Shown in pieces: positions 24,672 through 42,666 of a stretch of 64,000 nucleotides of DNA. Position 1 is the stretch's first letter, and every line of letters starts with the position of its first letter. Source of the DNA: Polyangiaceae bacterium (lineage in GTDB: Bacteria > Myxococcota_A > Polyangia > Polyangiales > Polyangiaceae). The DNA is taken from assembly GCA_050287085.1 (NCBI GenBank), contig JBNKBE010000012.1, forward strand, positions 96,001 to 160,000, given 5' to 3'. A program made the translations under genes and the position numbers. The notes under the pieces are model-generated. The model ran no database searches. It was not told the DNA's origin and saw nothing but the letters and a program-made list of their open reading frames with translations.

Positions 24672-25079
24672 TCAACCCCCCGCTTCTAGCTCGGTTGCGA
24701 CTCCAACATTGGTCGCCCCACCCAGTCGGCACTGATCGACAACCTCGATCAGCTTCTCCGCAGGAACGCGTCGGTCGGTGATGACAAGAATGGTCTTCGA
24801 GTCACTGCCTTCTAGCGCCTCGCGCACTCGACTCTGAACCATCCATGCCCTCACGGGGTTCCCGTTGACATAGATGTTGGACGACGAGTCAATATTGACG
24901 CGCAGGCTCTTGCTCGAAGCGCGAGACGCGCTTGCCGCCGCCGGACGCTCCAGATCGAGCTTCATGTCTTTGACGAAGGTCGTAGAAACCATGAAGAAGA
25001 TGAGGAGGATGAAGACGCAATCGATCAACGGTGAGATGTCGATCTCCGATGTACTCTGCTCTTTGACTCGCCTCTTCAT
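24672..25079 (-). CDS. exbD: Biopolymer transporter ExbD
   Basis: IDISPLIDCVFILLIFFMV motif. Confidence 0.94.
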   Translation of the reverse strand: MKRRVKEQSTSEIDISPLIDCVFILLIFFMVSTTFVKDMKLDLERPAAASASRASSKSLRVNIDSSSNIYVNGNPVRAWMVQSRVREALEGSDSKTILVITDRRVPAEKLIEVVDQCRLGGATNVGVATELEAGG

Positions 25080-25720
25080 GCGGCCACCTTCTCTTTCTCG
25101 CCCATAGCGCTACCGCCGCCGCAAAGCATCTCTTTGAGTTGCTGCAACTCACTTCGGCGGCGCCGCTCCTGCTTATCCAAGACCCGCCCGACTACGATCC
25201 CGGGCACGGCGACCGCAAGTCCCATCTGCGTGGTAAAAAGCGCTTGTGAGATCCCGCCTGCGATACCACCGCTCTGGGAGAACAAGGCCATATCGGCAAG
25301 GGAGTCGAAGGTCTCAATCATGCCGATGACCGTACCCAAGAGGCCCGCCAGCGGCGCTGTCGAAACAATGCTCTTGATGATGACCTTGCACCGCATCAGG
25401 GGAGTATCAAAAGCGGTGAAGGCGTCATCTAGAACCGGCCGCAACCCAGCCTGACCGTACCGCTCACGGAGTTCGAGCCCCCAAACGACGGCAGTGTCGA
25501 TCAGCCCGGTTGGCTGGCGCTCATAGCCGGACATGTATCGCGAGACCAAAACGCGGGCGCTGCGTCGGTTACCGCGCCGCAAATACTGAAAGCGCAGACC
25601 GAGACAATACCAGAGTACAAGAGTCCCGATCGCCAGCGGCGGCATGACGAATCCGCCCGCCTCGAAGTACTCGAGCAAAGCGCTCGGAAAGGCTTGGAGC
25701 TCGGAAATGATGCCCGCCAT
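25076..25720 (-). CDS. exbB: MotA/TolQ/ExbB proton channel
   Basis: APLAGLLGTVIGMIETF and GGISQALFTTQMGL motifs. Confidence 0.92.
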   Translation of the reverse strand: MAGIISELQAFPSALLEYFEAGGFVMPPLAIGTLVLWYCLGLRFQYLRRGNRRSARVLVSRYMSGYERQPTGLIDTAVVWGLELRERYGQAGLRPVLDDAFTAFDTPLMRCKVIIKSIVSTAPLAGLLGTVIGMIETFDSLADMALFSQSGGIAGGISQALFTTQMGLAVAVPGIVVGRVLDKQERRRRSELQQLKEMLCGGGSAMGEKEKVAA

Positions 25721-25723
25721 GTC

Positions 25724-27178
25724 CTACTCCGCGGCGGGTGAGGGCTCTGGGTCGACGGAAGGTCGACGGATTTCAGTCGGTGGCGTGGAAACACGAATGC
25801 CGTTGGCGATATTGATAACGCGTAGCGCCGCCTTGTCGATCGTGTCCTTGATGCTTTCTGCCCACGCAGAAAGCATATTGCCGAGAACCAACGACGGAAT
25901 CGCCACGATCAGGCCCAGCTCGGTCGTGATGAGGGCAATCGCGATGCCACCCGAAAGCAGCTTGGGGTTTCCCGTACCGAACTCCGTAATGATGTCAAAG
26001 GTCGCGATCATGCCGGTTACCGTGCCAAGCAAACCGAGAAGCGGCGCTACGGCAGCAATCACCACGATCTGCGTTCCAAAGCGTTCAAGGGTCGGCTGCT
26101 CATGCAAGATGGCTTCTTGCACGATATCTTCCAGCTCCTGACGATCGCGATGGATGTTGCGCAGAGTGGCCACCAACACCCGACCACCCGCACTCTTGGT
26201 TTCATCGCAAATGCGACGCGCCTCATCGAATTTTTGGTCCGCAACGAGGGGAGAAATGCGGTCGAGTAGACGATTTGTGTTCGCCGCCGCACGCCAGAGA
26301 AAGAGCGCTCGGAGCAACGCCATCACAACCGCAAGGGCTCCGATCGCAACGATCACCCACCCGATTACGCCACCGTCTTGCACCACTTCGATGGGCGACT
26401 TCTCGTGTTTCGGCTCAACCCCCTTGTCGAGCGATTCGTACAGAAAGGTGCGTAGCACAGCGGGCTGCCCGCCACTGAGAAGCGTCTCAACAATGCTCTT
26501 CGCCTCAGCGGCGGGCCATATCTTGAGGCTGCCGCCGCCCGCGGGGGCAAGCGCTCCGCTCGCGTTTTCGGCAGCGCCGTAGGCAGCGATTTGGCCGAGT
26601 CGAATTATCCGACCTTGAACCTGTTGTCCGGAAGCATTGAAGAACTTGCCGGGCTCCTCTCGGACTCGACCGAAACGGGACAAGAGCGAAAGTCCTTGGG
26701 TAAACGCGAAACGGACCCGATCGATCTCGGCTCGCCGCTTGGTCGCATCATCGACCCCGTCTCCGCTAGGCGCCTCGGGCAGCTTGATGTCGCCCTTCTC
26801 GAGAGCCGCGTCCGCTTGCGTGAGCAGGCTATCGACCTGGTCATCACCTTCGCTCGCCGCCTCCGCCTGCCGCTCAACGTCGGCTAACATTTCATTGAGC
26901 GACTCAGCTTGCATCGAGAGCGAAAGCACTGAGCCTTGCAGTCGATCCACCTCCGCAGTAGCAGCGCCGATCTTCGCCTGACTATCGGTCTCGACTTGCG
27001 TCAAACGTCCCTTGAGAGAGTCACGCTCAGCTATCAGGAACGACAATTCCCGACGATAGGCGTCCATAACGTCCGCTCGCGCGTGACGCGGTGCCAGCGC
27101 TAGCAGGCAGCATATCGCCGCCGACAACAGAAACCATCCGCGAGCGAAGTGCGGGCGGGAAGGGCATCGCGGGATCAT
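25724..27178 (-). CDS. Extended ExbB-family protein with periplasmic coiled coil (TtpC-like)
   Basis: Signal peptide, coiled coil, then APLLGLLGTVTGMIATF and GGIAIALITTELGL motifs. Confidence 0.9.
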   Translation of the reverse strand: MIPRCPSRPHFARGWFLLSAAICCLLALAPRHARADVMDAYRRELSFLIAERDSLKGRLTQVETDSQAKIGAATAEVDRLQGSVLSLSMQAESLNEMLADVERQAEAASEGDDQVDSLLTQADAALEKGDIKLPEAPSGDGVDDATKRRAEIDRVRFAFTQGLSLLSRFGRVREEPGKFFNASGQQVQGRIIRLGQIAAYGAAENASGALAPAGGGSLKIWPAAEAKSIVETLLSGGQPAVLRTFLYESLDKGVEPKHEKSPIEVVQDGGVIGWVIVAIGALAVVMALLRALFLWRAAANTNRLLDRISPLVADQKFDEARRICDETKSAGGRVLVATLRNIHRDRQELEDIVQEAILHEQPTLERFGTQIVVIAAVAPLLGLLGTVTGMIATFDIITEFGTGNPKLLSGGIAIALITTELGLIVAIPSLVLGNMLSAWAESIKDTIDKAALRVINIANGIRVSTPPTEIRRPSVDPEPSPAAE

Positions 27179-27978
27179 TTTGATACCTCTACTGAACTGG
27201 TTAGTGCGCCCGGCAATTCGAAGTAGCCAACGCGGATCTGCTTCTTGAAGCTGGAGAAGAGCTCGTTGACCTGCTTGACTTCGGTCGGACCGCTAAAGGG
27301 CACATAGCTCCAAGCATCCCCGCTGCGGACCGCCCGCCCCACGCTTCCGTCAGCGCCCTGGTAGTAAAGCATGACCATGCCGATCCGAATCACGTCGGCG
27401 AGCTGCTCCTGCCCGTCCACGTTGATGGTCTGACGAAACAGCCCGTTCTCGCGAGACATGCGGAACTCGTCCTCCATCACGCCCCATAGACGAAGCAGCG
27501 CGGTGGAAGGATTCACCAAGCCGGCCTTGTATTGGTCTTCCAGCTTGGTCACGGAACCTAGACGCTCACTCGTACGAAAGGGGAGGCTGGCCGAGATGTA
27601 TGACTTCACCTGTTCAGCGCTTTCCCTGAATAGGGGAACCAGCTCGTTCCCCCTCTCTTTCTCCGCCGCGATCTCTCTGCGTCGCTTTTCGATGTGCGCA
27701 CTCACCTTGGAGAGACGTCCCTGCTCACGCTTTTGCTCGAGCTCGAGGTCCGCTTTTTGGCGCGCCAATGAGCGAAGGCGATCGCTCGTTTCAGTGCTCT
27801 TTGCGCTGAGCTGTGAAGTCAAACTCTCCACTTCTGCACGCAGCTTGCTGAGTTGCTGCGCGAGGGCCTTGACGTCCTCGGCCAACGCAGGCGATGCGAT
27901 CGCTACGGCACCGAGAAGGCCCACGCAGGCCAACCAGCGGCGCGGCTTGCGGGAGTTGAGAGGGGCGGTAAAAGTCAT
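27175..27978 (-). CDS. DUF3450-like periplasmic protein (TtpB-like)
   Basis: Signal peptide, coiled coil, LPFRTSER and IRIGMVMLYY motifs; position at the head of the TonB2-type cluster. Confidence 0.8.
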   Translation of the reverse strand: MTFTAPLNSRKPRRWLACVGLLGAVAIASPALAEDVKALAQQLSKLRAEVESLTSQLSAKSTETSDRLRSLARQKADLELEQKREQGRLSKVSAHIEKRRREIAAEKERGNELVPLFRESAEQVKSYISASLPFRTSERLGSVTKLEDQYKAGLVNPSTALLRLWGVMEDEFRMSRENGLFRQTINVDGQEQLADVIRIGMVMLYYQGADGSVGRAVRSGDAWSYVPFSGPTEVKQVNELFSSFKKQIRVGYFELPGALTSSVEVSK

Positions 27979-28167: not shown

Positions 28168-29703
28168 CTACTCTTGCTCGTCAGTGGTCCACCCGGCAGC
28201 CCAGTTGTCGCCTTCGCCAAATGCACCCGCGTAGTCGACGTCTTCGAGCCCGTCGGCCTCGACCTTGCCAACACCGAGCAGATCGGAATCCTTCGCGGGT
28301 ACGAGGTATCCGTACAACTCGTCGCTCTGCTCGTCGAGTCCGAGGTCATCATAGCCGCCATCTTCGATCAGCGTGTTGTTGCTGTCTTTGGCTTCAAACG
28401 CGTCCTGGCTCTTCTCTAGCCAGTCACCTTCGGGGTAGATGGCGTCCTTAGCGCAAGCGATGAAACTATTGTTGATGGTGGCCTCGGTCTCCTCGTCCTG
28501 AACCAGCAGGCACGGCCCGCCGCTGTCAGCAACTACCGAGTTCCAGATCTCGGCGTGCGTGCCTCGGCGCAACTGAATTCCCTCGCCGGTCTTTGCGCTA
28601 CCGATGATGGTGATGTTAGCGAGCACGGGAGCGGAAACCGGCGTCGCGTCGTGGGCGCCTTCGAGGTTGTCGCCCTCGATACCGTTGTCCCCAGCGTAGT
28701 CTTCAGCCTTTCGGTACTGATCGATAGCTACGAACTGAGCCGAGCCGGTCCAACCGCTCGTCCAATCCAGACTGTCGTCGCCTTCGCCGCTGAGGACGAG
28801 ATGGCTTACGCTGACGGTACCGCCAAAGAACTCTACGCCGTCGTCGGAGTTGTGGTGAACCTGCACGTAGTCGATGACTGTTCCGGAGCCGACACCCTGG
28901 AAGGCAATGCCGTTCAGCTCCTCGGTGTCAGATGCGAGGTTGCCAGCGAACTCAACACGTACGTACTTGAGCACGCCGCTGCTGTCGTCGGCTTCGTCGC
29001 CGCCATATAGCCCACTGGCTACTTCACCTTCCGCATCACCGTCGGTTGCGTTCTGAGGGGCACGACCGTTGAGCACCAGACCGCCCCACTGACCGGCTAC
29101 GCGAATGCCGTCACTATCGCCCTTCGAAGTGAAGACGATCGGCTCTTTCGCCGTGCCTTCCGCCATGATCTTGGAGCCACGACGAACAACAACAGCGGAG
29201 CCGTTGCCGCCGTAGATCGTCACGCCAGGATTGATGGTGAAAACGGTCTCGTCCTTATCATTGCCAACCCAGAAGTACTGACCCGTCTTGAGCTCGTAGC
29301 GGACGCCGTCACACGCCATCAGTTCCAGGTCCTTGGTCATCCCCTTGGACGTAGTGCTGAGCTCACATACATCATCGCTGCCGCAGTCGACGTTCGGGTG
29401 GTCCTTCAGAGCCTGAAGGTAAGCTTCGCAGTCGTCAGCCGGCTTGTCATTGCTCATGCCGGCATCCGACATGTCGTTGTCGGCAGGCTTGTCGTCGGTC
29501 TTGCCAGCGTCAGCCTTGTCGGTAGGCATGTCGTCGTCGGTAGTCATGTCACCGTCGGCAGGCTTGTCGTTGGTCTTGCCAGCGTCAGCCTTGTCGGCGT
29601 CACCAGTCTTGTCGCTCTTGTCGTCCGAGTTGCCGCAAGCAACAAGCGCCGGGGCACCAAGAGCAATAAGGGTTGTAAGAATTGTAAGATGAAGTCTCTT
29701 CAT
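28168..29703 (-). CDS. Acidic lipoprotein with parallel beta-helix-type domain, of the kind encoded beside TonB-dependent receptors
   Basis: Lipobox LVAC; AEGTAKEPIVFTS, GQWGGLVLNGRAP, SSGVLKYVRVEFAG, DDGVEFFGG and DDSLDW repeats; start MKRLH at 29703. Confidence 0.85.
   Translation of the reverse strand: MKRLHLTILTTLIALGAPALVACGNSDDKSDKTGDADKADAGKTNDKPADGDMTTDDDMPTDKADAGKTDDKPADNDMSDAGMSNDKPADDCEAYLQALKDHPNVDCGSDDVCELSTTSKGMTKDLELMACDGVRYELKTGQYFWVGNDKDETVFTINPGVTIYGGNGSAVVVRRGSKIMAEGTAKEPIVFTSKGDSDGIRVAGQWGGLVLNGRAPQNATDGDAEGEVASGLYGGDEADDSSGVLKYVRVEFAGNLASDTEELNGIAFQGVGSGTVIDYVQVHHNSDDGVEFFGGTVSVSHLVLSGEGDDSLDWTSGWTGSAQFVAIDQYRKAEDYAGDNGIEGDNLEGAHDATPVSAPVLANITIIGSAKTGEGIQLRRGTHAEIWNSVVADSGGPCLLVQDEETEATINNSFIACAKDAIYPEGDWLEKSQDAFEAKDSNNTLIEDGGYDDLGLDEQSDELYGYLVPAKDSDLLGVGKVEADGLEDVDYAGAFGEGDNWAAGWTTDEQE
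29479..29597. repeat. 44-bp direct repeat (one mismatch, 75-bp period) inside the lipoprotein linker
   Basis: Copies at 29479-29522 and 29554-29597, encoding DKADAGKT(N/D)DKPAD. Confidence 0.9.
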
Positions 29704-29862
29704 GTTGCGAATCTCCGCCGAATGAGCTCGGCCTTGCTGAACCAACCGCCAGGGCCGGCGGCGACAGAACCTAGTCGCTGCGGGGTCTGCTCAGGTGACA
29801 GCGTCGAAAACGATGCGTTACAGAATTGCCACGGCTTGGTCGCATCGATTCGCGGCGGCGAC

Positions 29863-34105: not shown

Positions 34106-34899
34106 ATGACGGAAACGCTAACCAGCGCTCGCGCCGCCGCCTTTCTTCTTCGCTACGAGGCCGGCGGACGCTTCTTCCGGGAGCCCATTCTCCCTTCCAC
34201 GGACCTGCGCGAACAAAACCTGAGCGGGATTGAGTTCCGTGGCGGCAGCTTCGCTGGCAGTGACCTGTTCGCGGCCAGTCTCTACCAGGCCACAATAACG
34301 GGCACCGACTTCAGTCATGCCAACCTTGTCTCCTGCGACCTGAGTCGGAGCCATATCTCTCTGAGCCACTTCGTAGGAGCTCACTTGAATCAAGCGCGGA
34401 TCCGCTACAGCCAACTCTTGGAGGTGGAATGCGCGGGGCCAGCCTCGCCCATGCAGATCTGCGCCACAGCGCCCTAGAAGCCAACCTCGAAGGCGCCAAC
34501 CTCACGCGCTGTCGAGCCGAAGGAGTGGACCTAAGTCGTTGTTTTGCATTCGGACTCAACGCCGAGCGGCTGCACGCTCCGAAGGCCGATCTGAGCTTCG
34601 CCAAGCTGCGTCGCTCCAACCTGCACGGAGCCACGCTTCGAGACTCATGCCTTTCAGCAACTGATCTGCGGGAAAGCCAGCTGTCGGAAGTTGATGCCAC
34701 CGGAGGCGACTTCCGCGGGGCTCAGCTTCAAGGTGCAGATCTCAGTCGCTCTTCATTGCGTTATGCAGACTTGAGTGATGCTGACCTGACGGGCGCTCGA
34801 TTGCTCGCCACCGATCTGCGTGGAGCCATTCTGAACAACACGTGCTTTGACCAGGTCGACCTATCGGAAGCCCTGCTCGGTGCGTTGGAAGCGGAGTGA
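34106..34899 (+). pseudogene. Pentapeptide-repeat protein split by a frameshift near 34435-34438 (possibly a sequencing error)
   Basis: Starts FLLRYEAGGRFF with A(D/N)Lxx repeats in ORF 34106-34477; repeats continue in another frame (34429-34899). One extra G in the GGGG run would join them. Confidence 0.8.
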
Positions 34900-35238: not shown

Positions 35239-35748
35239 TTGCCGGAATCGGGCATTCAATTGAAGTACCCCACATCTCACCCCCGTTGGGGGCTCGCATT
35301 GCATATTGCAAGCAGCGCCCTACTGCTTCTTCTGCTGCTGTCGCGCCCAGCCGCCGCCGGCATCGAAGCACCGACGTGGCACGAAACCCAAGACGCCGAT
35401 GCTGAAGCGGGCCACGTGACCCTGACCTGGTCCGGCACGGGCGATAGCTACGAGCTTCAACATGCAACCGATGAACAATTCCTGCGCACCAGCCGCATAA
35501 CAAGTACGGCAGATACGCAAAGTTTCGTCTCCGGACTCGGAAATGGAGCCCACTACTTCCGAATTCGCTCGAAGCAACGCGGGGTGCTATCGCCCTGGTC
35601 GCCTGTGCTTCGCTTCGACGTGGCTCACCCCTCGCTTGCCACAAGTCTTGGTCTGTTCGGAGCCGGCGCGCTCGTCTTCGTCGTCACCGTTGCCTTCACT
35701 CTGACCGAGGGCTTTGGAGCATCAAGACACGCAAGGCGGGCGACTTGA
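35239..35748 (+). CDS. Exported single FN3-like domain protein with C-terminal TM anchor
   Basis: Signal peptide (LLLLLLSRPAAA); VTLTW...YELQ...VSGLGNGAHYFRIRS...SPWS; C-terminal hydrophobic helix; stop overlaps the symporter start; start uncertain. Confidence 0.75.
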   Translation: MPESGIQLKYPTSHPRWGLALHIASSALLLLLLLSRPAAAGIEAPTWHETQDADAEAGHVTLTWSGTGDSYELQHATDEQFLRTSRITSTADTQSFVSGLGNGAHYFRIRSKQRGVLSPWSPVLRFDVAHPSLATSLGLFGAGALVFVVTVAFTLTEGFGASRHARRAT

Positions 35749-37184
35749 ACTCGTTCAGTTTGCCTGCTGGCCTCGCCTGGGGATTGCTCGCCGCGTTCTC
35801 CGTACTGTGGATTGGCCTCGGGCTGTTCTGGGGTAAACGCGCTCGGACGGCTGAAGGGCATATGCTGGCAGGGCGCAATGTGGGCCTCGCACTGGGAGCT
35901 GCCACGGCCGTGGCCACCTGGGTCACCTCCAACACCACCATGTTGGCGCCGCAGTTCGCCCTCCAACTCGGAATCTGGGGCATGCTGGCATACTCCACCG
36001 CGTCCATCGGACTGTTTCTCTTTGCACCGATGGCACGTCGCATTCGAGCCCTGATGCCCAATGGCTACACCAGCGCGGAGTTCGTACGACTGCGTTACGG
36101 AAGAGCAGCTTGGGGCGTCTTCATGCTCATTTCGGTCTTCTACAGCCTCACATGGCTGATCAGTATGGCCATGGCCGGTGGCCTGCTCCTGGAGGCCCTT
36201 GCCGGCATTCCCTACGTCGCGGGCATGAGCATCATCTTGGCCGTCTGCGTGGTCTACACGGTGGTCGGCGGCCTCTACGCCGTGATCGGAACCGACTTCA
36301 TTCAGAGCCTGATCATTCTGGCTGGAGTTGTCATCGTCGGAGTGGCTGTGCTGGATCGAGTTCCCGTGGGTGTGATGTACGATCGCATCTCGGAAGAGCG
36401 TCCACTTCTACTGGACGCGATGTTCCCCGCGGCACTGATGGCCGTGTTCAACAATCTTCTATTCGGGCTGGGTGAAATCACGCACAGCAACGTTTGGTGG
36501 AGTCGTGCCTTCGCGATCCGCGACGGCCTAGGTCAGAAAGCGTACACACTAGCGGGGCTCATCTGGTTCCCCATCCCTCTCGCCGCAGGTTTCATTGCGC
36601 TCGCCGCGCCGAGCTTGGGAGTGAACGTGGCACGCCCGGATATGGTCGCCCCCTTGGTCGCGGGGTCGTTGCTGGGCAAAGCCGGAGCCGTCCTAGTCTT
36701 CATTGTCGTGTTTTCTTCTCTGGCCTCTAGCATCGACAGCCTGCTTGCGGCGACCAGCGATTTGATCACGAAGGAGGTCGTCGCACGGATACGACCCCGG
36801 CCCGGCGATGCTAGCGAGAAGCGACAGGCCATTGTCACTACGCTCGCCCTAGGTCTCCTGTGCTGGCTCGCCTGCCTGCCGAAAGTCGGAACGCTAGCGT
36901 CCGTATTATTCTTCGCCGGTCCCCTCGTAGGTAGCACCATCTGGCCAATTCTGGCTGGGCTCTATCATCCGAAGGCCTCGGCTGCTGCCGCAACCAGCGC
37001 GATGGTTCTCGGCAGCGGCGCTGGGCTCTTCGCATACTTCACCCTCGGTTGGTATACCGCGTCCTTGATCGGCACCACTGTATCGATGGCAGTGGTGTTG
37101 GTCGGGCTTGGCAGCAGCGCCCGCACTTTCGACTTCTCAATTCTCGCGGGAAGTAGCCCAACCCGAAACACGGAGACCTCGTAG
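35745..37184 (+). CDS. Sodium:solute symporter (SSS family, DUR3/PutP-like)
   Basis: About 13 TM helices; LAGRNVG, ATW, EFVRLRYG, YTVVGGLYAVIGTDFIQ and SSIDSLLAA motifs. Confidence 0.93.
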   Translation: MNSFSLPAGLAWGLLAAFSVLWIGLGLFWGKRARTAEGHMLAGRNVGLALGAATAVATWVTSNTTMLAPQFALQLGIWGMLAYSTASIGLFLFAPMARRIRALMPNGYTSAEFVRLRYGRAAWGVFMLISVFYSLTWLISMAMAGGLLLEALAGIPYVAGMSIILAVCVVYTVVGGLYAVIGTDFIQSLIILAGVVIVGVAVLDRVPVGVMYDRISEERPLLLDAMFPAALMAVFNNLLFGLGEITHSNVWWSRAFAIRDGLGQKAYTLAGLIWFPIPLAAGFIALAAPSLGVNVARPDMVAPLVAGSLLGKAGAVLVFIVVFSSLASSIDSLLAATSDLITKEVVARIRPRPGDASEKRQAIVTTLALGLLCWLACLPKVGTLASVLFFAGPLVGSTIWPILAGLYHPKASAAAATSAMVLGSGAGLFAYFTLGWYTASLIGTTVSMAVVLVGLGSSARTFDFSILAGSSPTRNTETS

Positions 37185-37303
37185 TGTTTCCAAAAGTTGT
37201 GTTCGAGGCGCTGGTACTGCTCAGTCTCATACTGACGGGCAGCTCCGTACTCCTATTGACGGTGCTTTGGCTGCGCGACTTGCGAAAGGGGAAACTGTGG
37301 TAG
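37184..37303 (+). CDS. 39-aa single-TM peptide, absent from the ORF track
   Basis: GTG at 37184 shares its G with the symporter TAG and follows a GGAG RBS; translates MFPKVVFEALVLLSLILTGSSVLLLTVLWLRDLRKGKLW*. Confidence 0.75.
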   Translation: MFPKVVFEALVLLSLILTGSSVLLLTVLWLRDLRKGKLW

Positions 37304-38400
37304 AGGGGAAACAGCGCTTCGAGTCCAGGATCGCGCCCGTGGGGTTGTCCCATAACTCGAGCGGACAACAACTCGCCGCCCGAGGTTTGGTCGAATTTCG
37401 CGATCAACGCCTGGACTTCATGCTCCTACAGAGCCTCGCCGGAAAGGCAGTGCTCAGCGCGCGCCTGTTCGACGCTTCGCTGGTCGTGGCGTTATGCAAG
37501 TTTGCTGGGCTACTCGAAATGACGGAGATCGCATCTCATCATCCACTCGACGGCAAGCTTGTGATCACCGCCTTCTTTGAGGCTAGCACACGGACGCGAC
37601 TCTCCTTTGAGAGTGCCGCCCTCCGGCTCGACGCCAAAGTCGTGAGCGTACCCGACGGCAAGGTCACCGGCATCGCCAAAGGCGAAAGCTTGGCGGACAT
37701 CGGCGAGATGTTCAACACCTATGGTGACCTTGTGGTCATGCGCCACCCAAAGAGCGAAGCCGTTTCTCAGCTACAGACTCACCTACGACTCCCCCTCATC
37801 AACGCAGGCAACGGCACTGACGAACATCCCACGCAAGCGTTAGTTGACTGGTACACGCTGCTCAAGTGGCGCCCAGAGTTGTGCGCCAGTGAACTCCCCC
37901 GGAGCAAACGCATCAGGCTCGGCATCATTGGTGACCCCAGCACGATGAGAACGGTTCGCAGCTTTCTCTACCTGGCTTGCTGTTTTGCCCCCGCTATCTC
38001 GGAGCTGTACATCATATCGCCCAACAAGAGCGAACCGACGGGTGCTCTCAAACGCAGCCTAAGCAGCGCTGGCATTCCACTCACAACGACCGACAAGCTC
38101 GGCCCCATATTGCCTTCGCTCGACGTCGTCTACATCAACTCCATCGCGCTACTGGATGATGGCTATCATGAATTGTCCGGGGACTACAACCTGAGCGCTA
38201 GTAGCCGTCTGAAGAAGGGTGCGGTCATTCTGCACCCCTTTGCCCGTCGTGGAGAACTTGCCGAGGACCTCGACGGAACAGAGCACAATCTCTACTTCGC
38301 CCAGGCAGCTGGCGCCGTTTATCTGCGTCAGGCGCTCCTGATCTGTCTACTCGAACGCTTGACCGCTTTGCCTGGGGGCGTGCTCTACTTGGCAAAGTAG
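37297..38400 (+). CDS. Aspartate-carbamoyltransferase-like enzyme, probably with a non-canonical amino-acid substrate
   Basis: FFEASTRTRLSFE, KGES, MRH, INAGNG..EHPTQ and RTVRS present; RxQxER and HPLP replaced by YINSIAL and HPFA; start GTG 37297 inferred. Confidence 0.88.
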   Translation: MVEGKQRFESRIAPVGLSHNSSGQQLAARGLVEFRDQRLDFMLLQSLAGKAVLSARLFDASLVVALCKFAGLLEMTEIASHHPLDGKLVITAFFEASTRTRLSFESAALRLDAKVVSVPDGKVTGIAKGESLADIGEMFNTYGDLVVMRHPKSEAVSQLQTHLRLPLINAGNGTDEHPTQALVDWYTLLKWRPELCASELPRSKRIRLGIIGDPSTMRTVRSFLYLACCFAPAISELYIISPNKSEPTGALKRSLSSAGIPLTTTDKLGPILPSLDVVYINSIALLDDGYHELSGDYNLSASSRLKKGAVILHPFARRGELAEDLDGTEHNLYFAQAAGAVYLRQALLICLLERLTALPGGVLYLAK

Positions 38401-38480: not shown

Positions 38481-40445
38481 ATGTGTGGAATTACAGGTTT
38501 CTGGCAGGTAGGTGGCCTCGGGGCAAACGATCACGAGAACCTGACGCGTATGCTCGCTACACTGCACCATCGCGGTCCCGACGGCAGCGGGCGCTATCAC
38601 GATGACGCGCTAGGCCTCGCCATTGGACACACTCGCCTCACCATCATCGATTTGCACACCGGCAAGCAGCCATTGATCGCTCCGGATCGCGCCCAGGTGT
38701 TCTCAGCCAACGGCGAATTCTACAACTACAAGGAAATGCGAGCGGAGTTCGCTCGCAGCGGCGTGGACTTCGAAACCAAGAGCGACAGCGAGGTCGCTCT
38801 CTATGCGTATCGGCGCTACGGCGACGCGTTCTTCGAACACCTTCGTGGCGAGTTCGCAATCGCGCTATTCGACTACCAGAAGCAAGAACTGCTGCTGGTC
38901 AGAGACCGCTTTGGTGTCAAACCACTCTACTACCATGCGACGGACGAGCGTTTGGTCTGGGGGTCCGAGGTAAAAGCCATTCTCGCTAACGACAAGGTGC
39001 CCAGAAGTCTCGACTTCAAGTCTGCGCTCAACCAAATGATGCAGACCATGGTGCCCGGCACAACAGCCTTTTCTGGTGTGCGAACACTGCTGCCTGGACA
39101 CTTTCTACGAGTGCGCCGCGAGGGCCACCGACTGGTTGCGCGTGAGCATCGCTACTGGGATATGAACTTCCCTGACGCCGAGGCACACGAGGAAGCACTC
39201 GAACCGCAGGTCTACATCGACCGCACTGCTGAGCAATTGATCGATGCGATTCGAGTACGGCTCGAGGCGGACGTTCCAGTGGGCTGCTACCTGTCGGGTG
39301 GCATCGACAGTTGCTCGATCCTGGGGCTCGCCACGGCGATGCAGCAATCGCCCGTCAAAGCCTTCACGATAAGCTTCGAGCACAAAGCCTACGACGAAAG
39401 CCATATCGCAACCGAGATGGCTCAGAAAGCCAAGGCGCAACAGGAGATTCTACGACTATCGGCAAGAGAGCTCTACGGACCGGCCTACGTTAAGACTCTA
39501 TGGCATGCGGAGCGCACATTCTACAACACGCTGGGAGTTGCCAAATGGCACATGAGTCGGCGCGTTCGAGAATGCGGCTACAAGGTCGTCGTAACCGGTG
39601 AAGGCTCCGACGAGATGTTTGCTGGCTACCCCTTCTTCAAGCGCGACTACTTCGCTCACGCGCCAGAGGCGAAGGGGGATGCCGCGGAGCTGGCACGGCG
39701 TATGGACGCCAGCAATACCCTCTTCAAGGGTGCGATCCTTGCTGAGGAAGCGACTCACCACGATGCTGCCGCGGATGTCATGGGGTTTACCCCTTCGTGG
39801 ATTCAACCGTGGATCCTTACGCTGGCAGCAGCGCGACCGCTGCTTTCAAAGACAGCCACTGAAGCCCTCGCAGAGTACGATCCAGTCGCGGCCGTGTTCG
39901 AAACGCTCGACCCCGAACAGTTGCGAGGACGCCATCCGCTGGACAAGGTTCAGTATAGCTGGATCAAGACGATGCTCGAAGGCCAGATCCTCACCTGGGG
40001 GGGTGATCGAGTCGATATGGCCAACTCGATGGAATCACGTCCAGCATTTCTCGATCATCACCTCGCGGAGATGGCACGCAACATTCCACCGAAATACAGA
40101 ATCCGGGGTGGCGTCGAAAAGTGGGTCTTGCGCGAAGCTATGCGTGGCGTGTTGCCCGAGGTGCTCTACAAGCGAGAGAAGTTCGCCTTCATGGCTCCGC
40201 CCGCACATACCGAGAAGCGGCAAAACAGTGTCTTGGACGACCTTATCGAAGAACGTCTCTCACACGCCGCAATCGAGTCCCTGGGCTTCTTCGACGCGAG
40301 CGCAATCGATGCGTTTCTTGCAGCCCGCAAGCAGGAGACTGACCCGGCACGGCAGACTCGCAACGATATTCTACTCAACCATACATTGGGCCTTCAGGTG
40401 CTGCATCAAGAATTTGTGGAGGCCCCGCGAGGCGCCGTGCTGTAG
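38481..40445 (+). CDS. Asparagine-synthetase-like glutamine amidotransferase (AsnB/AsnO/LtsA family)
   Basis: N-terminal MCGI (Ntn Cys), HRGPD, HTRL, NGEFYN, RDRFGVKPLYY, LSGGIDS, GEGSDE and DRVDMANSMESR motifs. Confidence 0.95.
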   Translation: MCGITGFWQVGGLGANDHENLTRMLATLHHRGPDGSGRYHDDALGLAIGHTRLTIIDLHTGKQPLIAPDRAQVFSANGEFYNYKEMRAEFARSGVDFETKSDSEVALYAYRRYGDAFFEHLRGEFAIALFDYQKQELLLVRDRFGVKPLYYHATDERLVWGSEVKAILANDKVPRSLDFKSALNQMMQTMVPGTTAFSGVRTLLPGHFLRVRREGHRLVAREHRYWDMNFPDAEAHEEALEPQVYIDRTAEQLIDAIRVRLEADVPVGCYLSGGIDSCSILGLATAMQQSPVKAFTISFEHKAYDESHIATEMAQKAKAQQEILRLSARELYGPAYVKTLWHAERTFYNTLGVAKWHMSRRVRECGYKVVVTGEGSDEMFAGYPFFKRDYFAHAPEAKGDAAELARRMDASNTLFKGAILAEEATHHDAAADVMGFTPSWIQPWILTLAAARPLLSKTATEALAEYDPVAAVFETLDPEQLRGRHPLDKVQYSWIKTMLEGQILTWGGDRVDMANSMESRPAFLDHHLAEMARNIPPKYRIRGGVEKWVLREAMRGVLPEVLYKREKFAFMAPPAHTEKRQNSVLDDLIEERLSHAAIESLGFFDASAIDAFLAARKQETDPARQTRNDILLNHTLGLQVLHQEFVEAPRGAVL

Positions 40446-40556: not shown

Positions 40557-41792
40557 ATGCTGAGCATAAACATGAAGCGACTGCAGCGAGATCTCGAGGA
40601 GCTCGCTGAAATTGGCCGCCGCGGAGACACAGGCATCTACCGCATTGCGTTGAGCGACGAGGACATGCAGGCGCGTCAGTGGCTGCAAGACAGGTTGTCG
40701 GACGCAGGCCTCCACTGGGAAGTCGACCCAGCGGCGAATATCTGCGGCAAACTCAATTGCGTGCCAGGAGAGCCCAACGTCTTGACGGGCTCGCATCTCG
40801 ACACCGTACCGAGCGCCGGACATTTGGACGGAGCCTTGGGCGTCGTTGCCGGACTTGAATGCTTGCGCACGCTCTCCGAACAAGGCTTTGTTGGCAAGCG
40901 CGGTATCGAAGTCGTCAGCTTCACCGATGAGGAGGGTCGCTTTGGCGGAATGCCAGGCTCGCAGGCGATCGCCGGAAAACTCACTCCCGAATCGGTCTAC
41001 TCAGCAAAAGATCTCAGCGGCGTGAGTCTGGCTGAAGCGCTTGAAGCGCGCGGGTTCATCCCCCTTCACGTGTTGCGCGCAGCGCGAGGGCGCGGCAGCG
41101 TCCATTCCTTCGTGGAGCTCCACATCGAGCAAGGCCCTGTGCTCGACAGTCAGGGGCTAGACATTGGTATCGTCACGGGCATCGTCGGCCTCGTGAAGTG
41201 GAAGGTAACACTGACAGGACAAGCCAACCACGCGGGAACAACGCCTATGGCGCTACGACGTGACGCATTTCAAGGTCTGGCCGAGTTCTCTCTGAGTCTT
41301 GATTCGATTCTGCGGAAACACGGCGATCCGAACAGTGTTGCCACGATTGGCCAAGTTAGCGTCAAACCAGGCGCCCCCAACGTGGTTCCCGCTCGAGCTG
41401 AGTTCTCCCTTGAGATCCGCGACATCAACAGTGAAGCGCTGGAGCGCCTCGCCGCCGCCATACGGCAACATCTCCGCGAAATCGCAGACCGACGCCGGCT
41501 GAGACTCGACTTCGCGGTATTGAGTGAGATCGCGCCTGTGCCCTGTGCCGAATCGGTCATGCAGACAATTGTCAGCGTCGCGCACGAGCTCGGACTGCGC
41601 GGGCAGCGTATGCCGAGCGGGGCCGCCCACGACGCGCAGCAAATGGCTTCACTGGCTCCAACCGGGATGATCTTCATTCCGAGCAAGGACGGGCGCAGTC
41701 ACTCTCCGGCTGAATGGTCAAGCTGGGAATCGATCGAGGCAGGGACCAATGTACTGCTGAATACTTTGGTCAGCCTGGCTGAAGCCCCCTAG
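40557..41792 (+). CDS. M20-family Zn amidohydrolase (N-carbamoyl-L-amino-acid / allantoate amidohydrolase type)
   Basis: GSHLDTVP, DGALGV, DEEG, ELHIEQGP, NHAGTTPM, SGAAHDA and SHSPAE motifs. Confidence 0.94.
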   Translation: MLSINMKRLQRDLEELAEIGRRGDTGIYRIALSDEDMQARQWLQDRLSDAGLHWEVDPAANICGKLNCVPGEPNVLTGSHLDTVPSAGHLDGALGVVAGLECLRTLSEQGFVGKRGIEVVSFTDEEGRFGGMPGSQAIAGKLTPESVYSAKDLSGVSLAEALEARGFIPLHVLRAARGRGSVHSFVELHIEQGPVLDSQGLDIGIVTGIVGLVKWKVTLTGQANHAGTTPMALRRDAFQGLAEFSLSLDSILRKHGDPNSVATIGQVSVKPGAPNVVPARAEFSLEIRDINSEALERLAAAIRQHLREIADRRRLRLDFAVLSEIAPVPCAESVMQTIVSVAHELGLRGQRMPSGAAHDAQQMASLAPTGMIFIPSKDGRSHSPAEWSSWESIEAGTNVLLNTLVSLAEAP

Positions 41793-41922: not shown

Positions 41923-42666
41923 ATGACTCAAAAGCAATTCGACAATATAGACCCGCTGCGCGACGCGTATCGGACCCACCTCACAGACGCCCATGAGGTG
42001 GAAATCGCGATTCGACAAGACCACGTCGCCCTGCTCTGTATCGACATGCAGTACTTGGACGCCGCTCGTGGGTGGGGGGTGTTCGCCCCTGGCCCGCAGG
42101 CGGTAGTACCGCCACAGGCCGAAGACTACTACTTCGAACGTCTCGAGAGCCTTGCATTGCGCAACGTGCGGCGATTGCAAGACGCATTCAGACGGCAACG
42201 TCTGGAAGTGATCCACACCCGCATTCGCTCTCTGACGCAGGATGGTCGCGATCGCGGCCCCGGACACAAGCGCCTGGGCCTACATGCCGCTCCAGGGTCA
42301 AAAGAAGCCGAGTTTCTCGAAGAAGTCGCTCCGCGGGGAGATGAAATCGTCCTCAACAAGACGGCCAGCGGAGTCTTCGTATCGACCAATCTGGAATACG
42401 TATTGCGAAATTTAGAAGTCAACGCCCTCTACATCGTTGGGGTCTACACCAACGAGTGTGTCGAAACCACCGCAAGAGACGCCAGCGACCTCGGCTTCTT
42501 CACAACCGTCATCGAAGACGCCTGTGCCACGGTAACACCTGAACTTCACAACTCATCCCTAAACACACTGCGGGATCGCTACGCACGCATCCTGTCCACT
42601 GATGCCGCCATTCGGGAGATCGAAGCGTATCGAGGCCGGGCAAGCGTGGCGCCACCGGGCCTTTGA
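41923..42666 (+). CDS. Isochorismatase-family cysteine hydrolase (amidase)
   Basis: Asp-Lys-Cys triad: LLCIDMQ, LNKTASGVF, GVYTNECVETTARDA; start MTQKQ at 41923. Confidence 0.92.
   Translation: MTQKQFDNIDPLRDAYRTHLTDAHEVEIAIRQDHVALLCIDMQYLDAARGWGVFAPGPQAVVPPQAEDYYFERLESLALRNVRRLQDAFRRQRLEVIHTRIRSLTQDGRDRGPGHKRLGLHAAPGSKEAEFLEEVAPRGDEIVLNKTASGVFVSTNLEYVLRNLEVNALYIVGVYTNECVETTARDASDLGFFTTVIEDACATVTPELHNSSLNTLRDRYARILSTDAAIREIEAYRGRASVAPPGL

What the first reader, a model, noticed from the sequence alone, without database searches (positions are those of the whole stretch)
37297..38400. ATCase homologue with the aspartate side-chain recognition loop replaced
Seen: carbamoyl-phosphate-site residues (STRT, KGE, R in MRH, HPTQ) and the alpha-carboxylate Arg (RTVRS, equivalent to E. 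coli R167) are kept. The TRxQxER loop (E. coli R229/Q231, which binds the beta-carboxylate) reads YINSIAL, and HPLP reads HPFA. The ornithine-type DxxxSMG and HCLP motifs are also absent. Inference: a transcarbamylase for a different alpha-amino acid, acting before amidation because alpha-carboxylate binding is retained.
Basis: partly seen in the sequence, partly recalled or inferred. Interest (0 to 1): 0.72.

Follow-up and report, generated by a model that had tools for sequence, protein, structure and literature searches.

The report
Orphan carbamoyltransferase of probable osmolyte operon
This gene is a look-alike of the pyrimidine enzyme ATCase that has lost its aspartate-gripping residues; it belongs to a described but untested family and, with its neighbouring amide-forming enzyme, probably makes a salt-protective carbamoylated amino acid amide whose genes have not been identified.

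Summary
Observation confirmed. The 367-aa protein keeps every carbamoyl-phosphate ligand and the alpha-carboxylate Arg/Lys, but E. coli R229/Q231 read Ser/Ala and HPLP reads HPFA. No Arg occurs at 229 in 119 and 120 homologues or 80 genome loci. The genome has a separate canonical pyrB and argF. The family is in print: Barba et al. 2013 'pseudo-ATCase' marine subgroup (same motifs, same neighbours), substrate never tested; Doré et al. call it pyrB2. What I add: the partner is a Gln-dependent, ATP-driven amidotransferase (80 of 80 loci), not an asparaginase. The operon also holds a DUR3-like symporter, an unlisted conserved 39-aa membrane protein, an N-carbamoylase and a cysteine amidase. It is linked to MarR and glycine-betaine genes, and mirrors the NAGGN osmolyte operon. 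Best reading (0.5): Gln is carbamoylated, then alpha-amidated to N-carbamoyl-L-glutamine-1-amide, an osmolyte whose genes I did not find in print. Against: cluster-bearing Rhodopirellula baltica showed no such solute and no salt induction of this gene; I could not check the known producer's genome. The scan noted the same idea on two other genomes.

The parts
35239..35748 (+). Small exported/membrane-anchored protein with a fibronectin-III-like domain; start codon uncertain
   Evidence: No Pfam or NCBIfam hit; ESM Atlas neighbours 0.95-0.97, one named FN3-domain protein; homologue in 45 of 80 genome loci and 28 of 80 metagenome loci; a distantly similar protein in 24 planctomycete loci
35745..37184 (+). 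Sodium:solute symporter (SSS), closest solved relative DUR3 urea symporter
   Evidence: PF00474 E 5.6e-25; DUR3 E 1.7e-28 against 1.8e-8 for the next SSS; in 75 of 80 genome loci, the 5 misses having under 800 bases upstream
37184..37303 (+). Unlisted 39-aa hydrophobic membrane protein ending D-x5-(L/I/V)W; overlaps the SSS stop and the transcarbamylase start
   Evidence: Found after the SSS stop in 133 of 140 loci examined, 132 ending in W; no NCBIfam hit
37297..38400 (+). Pseudo-ATCase transcarbamylase, 367 aa (the finding)
   Evidence: PF02729 and PF00185; below all NCBIfam PyrB/ArgF cut-offs, best 174.5 against 236.95 bits; AlphaFold2 pLDDT 87.7, Foldseek top hits ATCases
37585..37596 (+). 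STRT phosphate-binding motif (residues 97-100)
37948..37950 (+). R218, equivalent to E. coli R167 (alpha-carboxylate), preceded by family-invariant M217 in place of Gly
38131..38151 (+). Replaced 240s loop YINSIAL (R229 to S282, Q231 to A284)
38233..38244 (+). HPFA in place of HPLP (P268 to A316)
38481..40445 (+). AsnB-like glutamine-dependent, ATP-driven amidotransferase, 654 aa, Cys1 and PP-loop intact
   Evidence: TIGR01536 416 bits, over cut-off 267; NAGGN amidotransferase TIGR03104 302 bits, under cut-off 570; MCG start matched in 77 of 80 loci, two more read VCGI from a GTG start, one not parsed; SGGIDS and TGEG.DE conserved over 71 aligned
40557..41792 (+). [quoted passage not shown]
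   Evidence: Best PDB hit 3n5f L-carbamoylase E 1.5e-96; over cut-off for TIGR01879 and NF006771; ErtE (N-carbamyl-L-glutamate hydrolase) is the best equivalog but under its cut-off, here and in 33 of 33 cluster homologues
41923..42666 (+). Isochorismatase-family cysteine amidase, 247 aa
   Evidence: PF00857 E 2.3e-35; only distant PDB relatives (biuret, ureidoacrylate, N-carbamoylsarcosine amidases); Asp, Lys and Cys of the recalled catalytic triad conserved over 75 aligned

Best explanation
[quoted passage not shown] Step 1 (inferred): the enzyme binds carbamoyl phosphate from CarAB through its intact site and grips the alpha-carboxylate of L-glutamine (less likely glutamate) with R218/K128. 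The Arg-free, enlarged NSIA pocket takes a longer neutral side chain. Product: N-carbamoyl-glutamine. Step 2 (inferred): the AsnB-like enzyme uses ATP and Gln to amidate the alpha-carboxylate, as AsnO does in NAGGN synthesis. Uptake (inferred): DUR3-like symporter with two small membrane partners. Turnover (inferred): the cysteine amidase removes the amide and the M20 carbamoylase frees the amino acid. Shown here: fold, motifs, operon, conservation, separate pyrB/argF/carB. Not shown: substrate, product, direction, regulation. Layered odds: not an ATCase 0.97; biosynthetic partner of the amidotransferase 0.7; product is CGA 0.5.
For: Carbamoyl-phosphate site invariant and no Arg at 229 in 119+120 homologues. 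Amidotransferase downstream on the same strand in 80 of 80 genome loci and 66 of 80 metagenome loci, where all 14 misses have at most 413 bases after the gene; the hydrolases are more often missing (M20 39 of 80, amidase 30 of 80). Carbamoyl-phosphate synthase present, no carbamate kinase over cut-off. GatB present, no AsnRS over cut-off, so the AsnB-like enzyme is not needed for translation. Osmolyte context: betaine synthesis or uptake genes in 14 of 160 loci and a MarR gene in 31 of 160. Glycine/sarcosine methyltransferase in 26 of 80 cluster-bearing genomes against 2 of 160 in a planctomycete class sample and 5 of 150 in this genome's order. This genome carries the methyltransferase pair and a BCCT carrier on C40. 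The NAGGN operon has the same layout: divergent MarR, asparagine-synthase-like gene, acyltransferase, peptidase, with amidation last (PMC8070244, passages). CGA is a known solute with both charged groups masked (PMC1224877, passage). Transporter nearest to a urea carrier; hydrolase nearest to L-N-carbamoylase.
Against: R. baltica is named as carrying this cluster (PMC4016543), yet an NMR survey reports glutamate, sucrose, trehalose and MGG and never mentions a carbamoyl or amide solute (PMC3694870, abstract and passages). RB13301 is not in the list of regulated genes of a salt/heat/cold microarray (PMC2754498 supplement 1). 54 of 80 cluster-bearing genomes lack the betaine methyltransferase. 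In the random planctomycete sample the 3 cluster-bearing genomes lacked it and the 2 that had it lacked the cluster. The co-occurrence may only reflect shared marine habitat and kinship. No betaine gene lies next to the operon in this window, and the MarR query found no match in this genome. No named Ectothiorhodospira protein appeared. Nothing here measures pocket size, so Gln is chosen by analogy with a known metabolite. Doré et al. find the cluster favoured in N- and P-poor warm water, odd for a four-nitrogen solute.
Confidence: 0.5

Rival explanations
1. Same biosynthetic logic, different amino acid or order: for example AsnB first makes asparagine, which the transcarbamylase carbamoylates; or a small/neutral acceptor (Gly, Ala, sarcosine) gives another ureido amide. 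The product serves as osmolyte or nitrogen store.
For: Losing the Arg that binds a beta-carboxylate also suits Asn. The partner passes the asparagine-synthase cut-off and not the NAGGN amidotransferase one, and is the only strong Asn_synthase match in the genome. Invariant M217 in place of Gly could shrink the pocket. Sarcosine-making genes are linked in 8 of 160 loci and the amidase family includes N-carbamoylsarcosine amidase.
Against: R229 to Ser/Ala/Thr and Q231 to Ala remove more bulk than an isosteric Asn needs (inference). No such solute came up in my paper searches, which were aimed at the glutamine compound. The amidase matches are all distant (E 1e-8 to 1e-14).
Confidence: 0.27
2. 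Catabolic or scavenging operon: the DUR3-like symporter imports a ureido compound or urea derivative, the two hydrolases release nitrogen, and the transcarbamylase runs backwards like UGTCase to yield carbamoyl phosphate.
For: Transporter nearest DUR3; two hydrolases in the operon; the only tested pseudo-ATCase is catabolic (PMC4016543); picocyanobacterial cluster enriched in N-depleted water; this genome has urease.
Against: No carbamate kinase over cut-off in the genome and none among recurring neighbours. The ATP-consuming amidotransferase is the constant partner (80 of 80) and the hydrolases are the optional ones. Motifs differ from UGTCase's H(T/S)LP.
Confidence: 0.13
3. A second, divergent ATCase for an alternative pyrimidine route (the pyrB2 reading of Doré et al.).
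For: ATCase fold and best HMM and structure hits; database labels say ATCase; proposed in 10.1101/2022.08.17.504260 (passage).
Against: RxQ loop, described as present in all known ATCases, is absent in every family member read; canonical pyrB here and in 5 of 5 named genomes checked; no dihydroorotase among recurring neighbours.
Confidence: 0.04
4. Non-catalytic or regulatory subunit (carbamoyl-phosphate sensor or scaffold for the amidotransferase or transporter).
For: Loss of the Leu-Pro whose cis peptide orients main-chain oxygens toward both substrates; a sister clade has lost the phosphate motif altogether.
Against: All carbamoyl-phosphate ligands, K128 and R218 are invariant across two clades 45% apart.
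Confidence: 0.06

Closest known systems
Pseudo-ATCase marine subgroup of Barba et al. 2013 (PMC4016543; subgroup 3 in text and Fig. 5 legend; R. baltica RB13301, Nitrosococcus, Synechococcus WH8102, Kangiella)
   Same: STRT, HPTQ, HPLA-type and SIA motifs; Na+ symporter upstream; N-carbamoyl-amino-acid hydrolase nearby. The R. baltica gene fetched here reads NSIA/HPLAR (L176).
   Different: The paper calls the downstream gene a putative asparaginase; here it is a Gln-dependent amidotransferase. Its Table 1 lists the HPLA/SIA motifs under 'pseudo-ATCase 1', which looks like a label swap. No substrate was proposed or tested for this subgroup in the sections I read (6 in part, 7, passages of 8 and 11).
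asnB-pyrB2-pydC cluster of marine picocyanobacteria (Doré et al., 10.1101/2022.08.17.504260)
   Same: Same three gene types by name.
   Different: Read there as an alternative pyrimidine route; I did not have their sequences, so identity with this family rests on gene names and on Barba's listing of WH8102.
Aspartate transcarbamylase PyrB (EC 2.1.3.2)
   Same: Fold, carbamoyl-phosphate site, E50-type FxExSTRT, K84, R105, R167 equivalents; 30-35% identity.
   Different: No R229/Q231 loop, HPxA for HPLP, about 45 extra N-terminal residues, below NCBIfam cut-offs, no pyr context.
Ureidoglycine transcarbamylase (UGTCase, Rubrobacter Rxyl_2847)
   Same: ATCase-branch paralogue keeping R167/K84 equivalents, with a Ser in the 240s loop (Table 1 of PMC4581275).
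   Different: H(T/S)LP motif, purine-catabolism context with carbamate kinase and allantoinase, catabolic.
NAGGN osmolyte operon (asnO-ngg-peptidase, MarR PA3458)
   Same: N-capping enzyme plus AsnB-type amidotransferase acting last, a degrading hydrolase and often a MarR gene.

Membership tests
Transcarbamylase superfamily | SxRT, HPxQ, beta-4 Arg and two-domain fold | tested here: met
Transcarbamylase superfamily | HxLP motif with cis Leu-Pro | tested here: not met
   HPFA/HPLA in all members read; the same exception is listed for pseudo-ATCases
ATCase (PyrB) | RxQ(x)xER 240s loop | tested here: not met
ATCase (PyrB) | R167 and K84 equivalents | tested here: met
   R218 and K128 invariant
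ATCase (PyrB) | NCBIfam equivalog cut-off | tested here: not met
   174.5 of 236.95 and 171.7 of 263 bits
ATCase (PyrB) | Aspartate carbamoylation, pyrB complementation | not testable with these tools
   needs bench work
OTCase, PTCase, YgeW | DxxxSMG/HCLP motifs or HMM cut-offs | tested here: not met
   motifs absent; OTCase 77.6 of 306, PTCase 45.6 of 500, YgeW 23.5 of 500 bits
UGTCase | H(T/S)LP motif; carbamate kinase and allantoinase neighbours | tested here: not met
Pseudo-ATCase marine subgroup (Barba 2013) | STRT, HPTQ, HPLA, (A/S)I(A/S) motifs | tested here: met
   STRT, HPTQ, SIA exact; HPFA is a variant seen in 31 of 119 near homologues against HPLA in 86
Pseudo-ATCase marine subgroup (Barba 2013) | Na+ symporter upstream, Asn-related gene downstream, carbamoylase nearby; separate genuine pyrB | tested here: met
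Pseudo-ATCase marine subgroup (Barba 2013) | One clade with the R. baltica protein | tested here: inconclusive
CGA biosynthesis (genes not found in print) | Cluster present in the producer E. marismortui | not testable with these tools
   No named record of that organism reached; an earlier AI note asserts it, unchecked
CGA biosynthesis (genes not found in print) | Enzymes make CGA; solute rises with salt | not testable with these tools
   Published R. baltica data show neither

The most novel reading that the evidence does not exclude
This is a glutamine transcarbamylase, a new specificity in the ATCase branch. With its AsnB-like neighbour it forms the two-step route to N-carbamoyl-L-glutamine-1-amide, an osmolyte known since 1991 from one purple sulfur bacterium. 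The operon's spread across marine myxobacteria, planctomycetes, Bacteroidota, Nitrospira, lucinid-clam symbionts and picocyanobacteria would make it a common, overlooked nitrogen-rich marine solute with its own carrier and recycling enzymes.
Probability: 0.45. Interest if true: 0.72.

Novelty: new member of a known kind. Interest (0 to 1): 0.5.

Why it matters
The family is labelled ATCase in databases and was read as a pyrimidine route in picocyanobacteria, so the annotation is wrong in at least several hundred species (417 relatives among 185,579 GTDB species genomes with two patterns). If the CGA reading holds, a 35-year-old orphan metabolite gets its genes, the transcarbamylase family gains a new specificity, and a four-nitrogen solute enters marine osmolyte and dissolved-nitrogen budgets. 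The test is cheap: one colour assay on an amino-acid panel and one coupled LC-MS run. The score is held down because the family, its motifs and its gene context were published in 2013 and the substrate call is still analogy.

Tried and rejected
Looking for a named Ectothiorhodospira homologue: none among named rows; this is a failure to reach the record, not absence. Fusion of the enzyme to the amidotransferase: none among 9 longer hits, all 30-45% identical with CAD/PyrB-type or unrelated domains (weak test). Plasmids: 1 of 72,556 records matched, a genuine pyrB. Promoter/terminator scan: 0 promoters, 5 terminators against 5.7 expected, uninformative. Tree: the careful search did not finish; the quick tree used 66 of 136 trimmed sequences (one in three RxQ-type ATCases kept, two fragments dropped) and had no named PTCase, YgeW or UGTCase. 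ErtE as best equivalog of the M20 enzyme: under cut-off each time and outscored by a broad subfamily model, so only a weak hint of glutamate/glutamine. R. baltica salt-up genes RB13294 and RB13300: both lie near the cluster, but by position they may be antisense calls over the MarR gene and the small membrane gene, so not used as support. Ectoine synthase: no match in this genome, but no control rang. Barba supplements unreadable; they hold the alignment that would fix the subgroup label. bioRxiv supplements of Doré et al. (Fig. S8, Dataset 6) are closed and bear on which strains carry the cluster. No complex prediction was run, because no binding claim is made.

Full report
Observation. Window 37297-38400 (+) encodes a 367-aa protein with both Pfam transcarbamylase domains. 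Its best NCBIfam hits are ATCases, all under their cut-offs (174.5 of 236.95 bits for TIGR00670). Its best solved relatives are ATCases by sequence (1ml4, E 2.6e-41) and by fold (AlphaFold2 from 38 homologues, pLDDT 87.7, pTM 0.89; Foldseek 1ml4 E 1.9e-23). The alignments place S282 on the Arg and A284 on the Gln of the ATCase 240s loop, R218 on the alpha-carboxylate Arg, and A316 on the Pro of HPLP. The review by Shi et al. (PMC4581275, sections 3, 5 and 8 read) gives the roles of these residues and states that the RxQ motif is in all known ATCases.

It is a family trait. In 119 of 119 nearest homologues STRT, K128, R149 and R218 are invariant, and 281-284 is NSIA, NSIT or NSLA. A second clade, 45% identical and named as Chromatiales and Ca. 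Thiodiazotropha where names exist, has A, T, S or V at 282 in 120 of 120 and HPLAR throughout. A quick tree of 66 of 136 sequences puts 14 such proteins on one branch (SH-aLRT 85). With a sister group of 13 motif-less proteins the support is 100, apart from 36 RxQ-type ATCases (the careful search did not finish).

Not the housekeeping enzyme. The genome has three transcarbamylases: pyrR-pyrB with RIQQER and HPGP, argD-argF with the SMG and HCLP motifs, and this gene. Five of five named genomes checked also have an RxQ-type ATCase and an ornithine-type enzyme beside the family gene. The gene is patchy: 0 of 150 other genomes of this order and 3 of 160 in a planctomycete class sample, but 417 relatives over all GTDB species.

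The operon. On the + strand: a small FN3-like membrane protein (35239-35748), an SSS carrier nearest to the urea symporter DUR3 (35745-37184), a 39-aa membrane protein missed by ORF lists (37184-37303), the transcarbamylase, an AsnB-like amidotransferase (38481-40445), an M20 N-carbamoylase (40557-41792) and an isochorismatase-family amidase (41923-42666). In 80 genome loci from Myxococcota, Planctomycetota, Bacteroidota, Calditrichota, Nitrospira and others, the amidotransferase follows in 80, the carrier is present in 75 (the misses are contig ends), the FN3-like gene in 45, the M20 enzyme in 39 and the amidase in 30. In 80 metagenome loci of the second clade the counts are 66, 65, 28, 44 and 47. 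The small ORF follows the carrier in 133 of 140 loci examined. The amidotransferase keeps its N-terminal Cys and PP-loop, so it spends ATP and Gln to make an amide.

Direction. The constant partner is ATP-consuming and the hydrolases are optional. The genome has CarB but no carbamate kinase over cut-off. It has GatB and no AsnRS over cut-off, so free Asn is not needed for translation. The operon gene is the only strong Asn-synthase match; three weak domain matches lie elsewhere. These points favour synthesis of a dedicated small molecule carrying a ureido group and a new amide (inference).

Osmolyte link. Glycine-betaine synthesis or uptake genes lie within 7-8 kb in 14 of 160 loci (10 of 86 loci of at least 10 kb), and a MarR gene in 31 of 160 (40 with looser clustering). 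The glycine/sarcosine methyltransferase occurs in 26 of 80 cluster-bearing genomes: 6 of 6 titled Polyangiaceae and 14 of 32 planctomycetes. Backgrounds are 2 of 160 and 5 of 150. This genome has the methyltransferase pair and a BCCT carrier on contig C40. Kin are not independent and marine habitat may drive both traits; in the random sample the 3 cluster carriers lacked the methyltransferase. The layout matches the NAGGN operon, where an N-capping enzyme acts first, an asparagine-synthase-like enzyme amidates last, a peptidase follows and a divergent MarR represses (PMC8070244, passages). [quoted passage not shown]

Mechanism, most likely (0.5). Gln plus carbamoyl phosphate gives N-carbamoyl-Gln; the amidotransferase converts its alpha-carboxylate to the amide; the carrier takes the solute up; amidase and carbamoylase recycle it. 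Shown: anatomy, motifs, conservation, paralogy. Inferred: substrate, order, product, role.

Against. R. baltica carries the cluster, but NMR showed glutamate, sucrose, trehalose and MGG with no mention of a carbamoyl solute (PMC3694870, abstract and passages). RB13301 is not among regulated genes in a stress microarray (PMC2754498, supplements searched). One R. baltica assembly has a frameshifted amidotransferase (L033), which may or may not apply to the strain studied. In picocyanobacteria the cluster goes with N- and P-poor water. I could not reach the producer's genome. Rivals: another amino acid or Asn first (0.27), catabolic scavenging (0.13), non-catalytic (0.06), second ATCase (0.04).

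What is known. Barba et al. 2013 (PMC4016543; abstract, section 7 and passages) defined pseudo-ATCases and listed the HPLA and SIA motifs. They described a marine subgroup between a Na+ symporter and a 'putative asparaginase', next to a carbamoylase, and tested only the Rubrobacter enzyme (UGTCase). Their Table 1 label for these motifs appears swapped with the text; the R. baltica gene read here has NSIA/HPLAR. Doré et al. (bioRxiv, passages) call it pyrB2 and suggest pyrimidine synthesis. Searches for a link to CGA or compatible solutes found no paper making it (listings only for PMC3857566, PMC13003124, PMC7398229, PMC3478167, PMC8336468); most subscription journals are outside the library. 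Two earlier notes of this scan propose the same idea on other genomes. My reading was noted before that look-up. They are not independent support, and their claim about the producer's genome is unchecked.

Verdict. A real, correctly described feature; a new member of a published but uncharacterised family, not an ATCase. Its value is a sharply testable pathway proposal for an orphan osmolyte. Interest 0.5; 0.72 if the CGA route is confirmed (probability 0.45).

Noticed in passing
window 37184-37303 (+): Unannotated 39-aa membrane protein coupling the symporter to the transcarbamylase; conserved in 133 of 140 loci, no NCBIfam family.
   Followed up: yes
P0134, P0140, P0141, P0152, P0155, P0161, P0164, P0181, P0182, P0186, P0208, P0252, P0264: Sister clade of about 355-aa ATCase-fold proteins that have lost STRT, KGE and HPxAR but mostly keep the R167-type Arg; almost all metagenomic, one named Gammaproteobacteria. 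Gene context unknown; none was the best match in the 80 metagenome loci.
   Followed up: partly
G000:C40:9310-12337: Glycine/sarcosine and sarcosine/dimethylglycine methyltransferases next to a BCCT carrier: de novo betaine synthesis in this genome.
   Followed up: partly
L033:9053-10971: The amidotransferase gene of R. baltica BR-MGV is split by a frameshift near its 3' end; real or assembly error not determined.
   Followed up: partly
L055:9011-11908; similar in L057, L066, L078: In some Bacteroidota loci a long (965-aa in L055) protein with a split M20 carbamoylase-like region replaces the usual hydrolase pair.
   Followed up: no
P0121, P0130: Actinobacterial members (Actinophytocola, Micromonospora) with NALV/NALT loops; context not seen, may serve another product.
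   Followed up: no
window 34106-34899 (+): A pentapeptide-repeat-like gene lies in two overlapping frames (34106-34477 and 34429-34899), possibly frameshifted (family label recalled).
   Followed up: no
window 28168-29745 (-) and 24672-27978 (-): Acidic lipoprotein-like ORF with short Asp/Lys-rich repeats, upstream of genes that look like ExbB/ExbD (labels recalled, not scanned).
   Followed up: no
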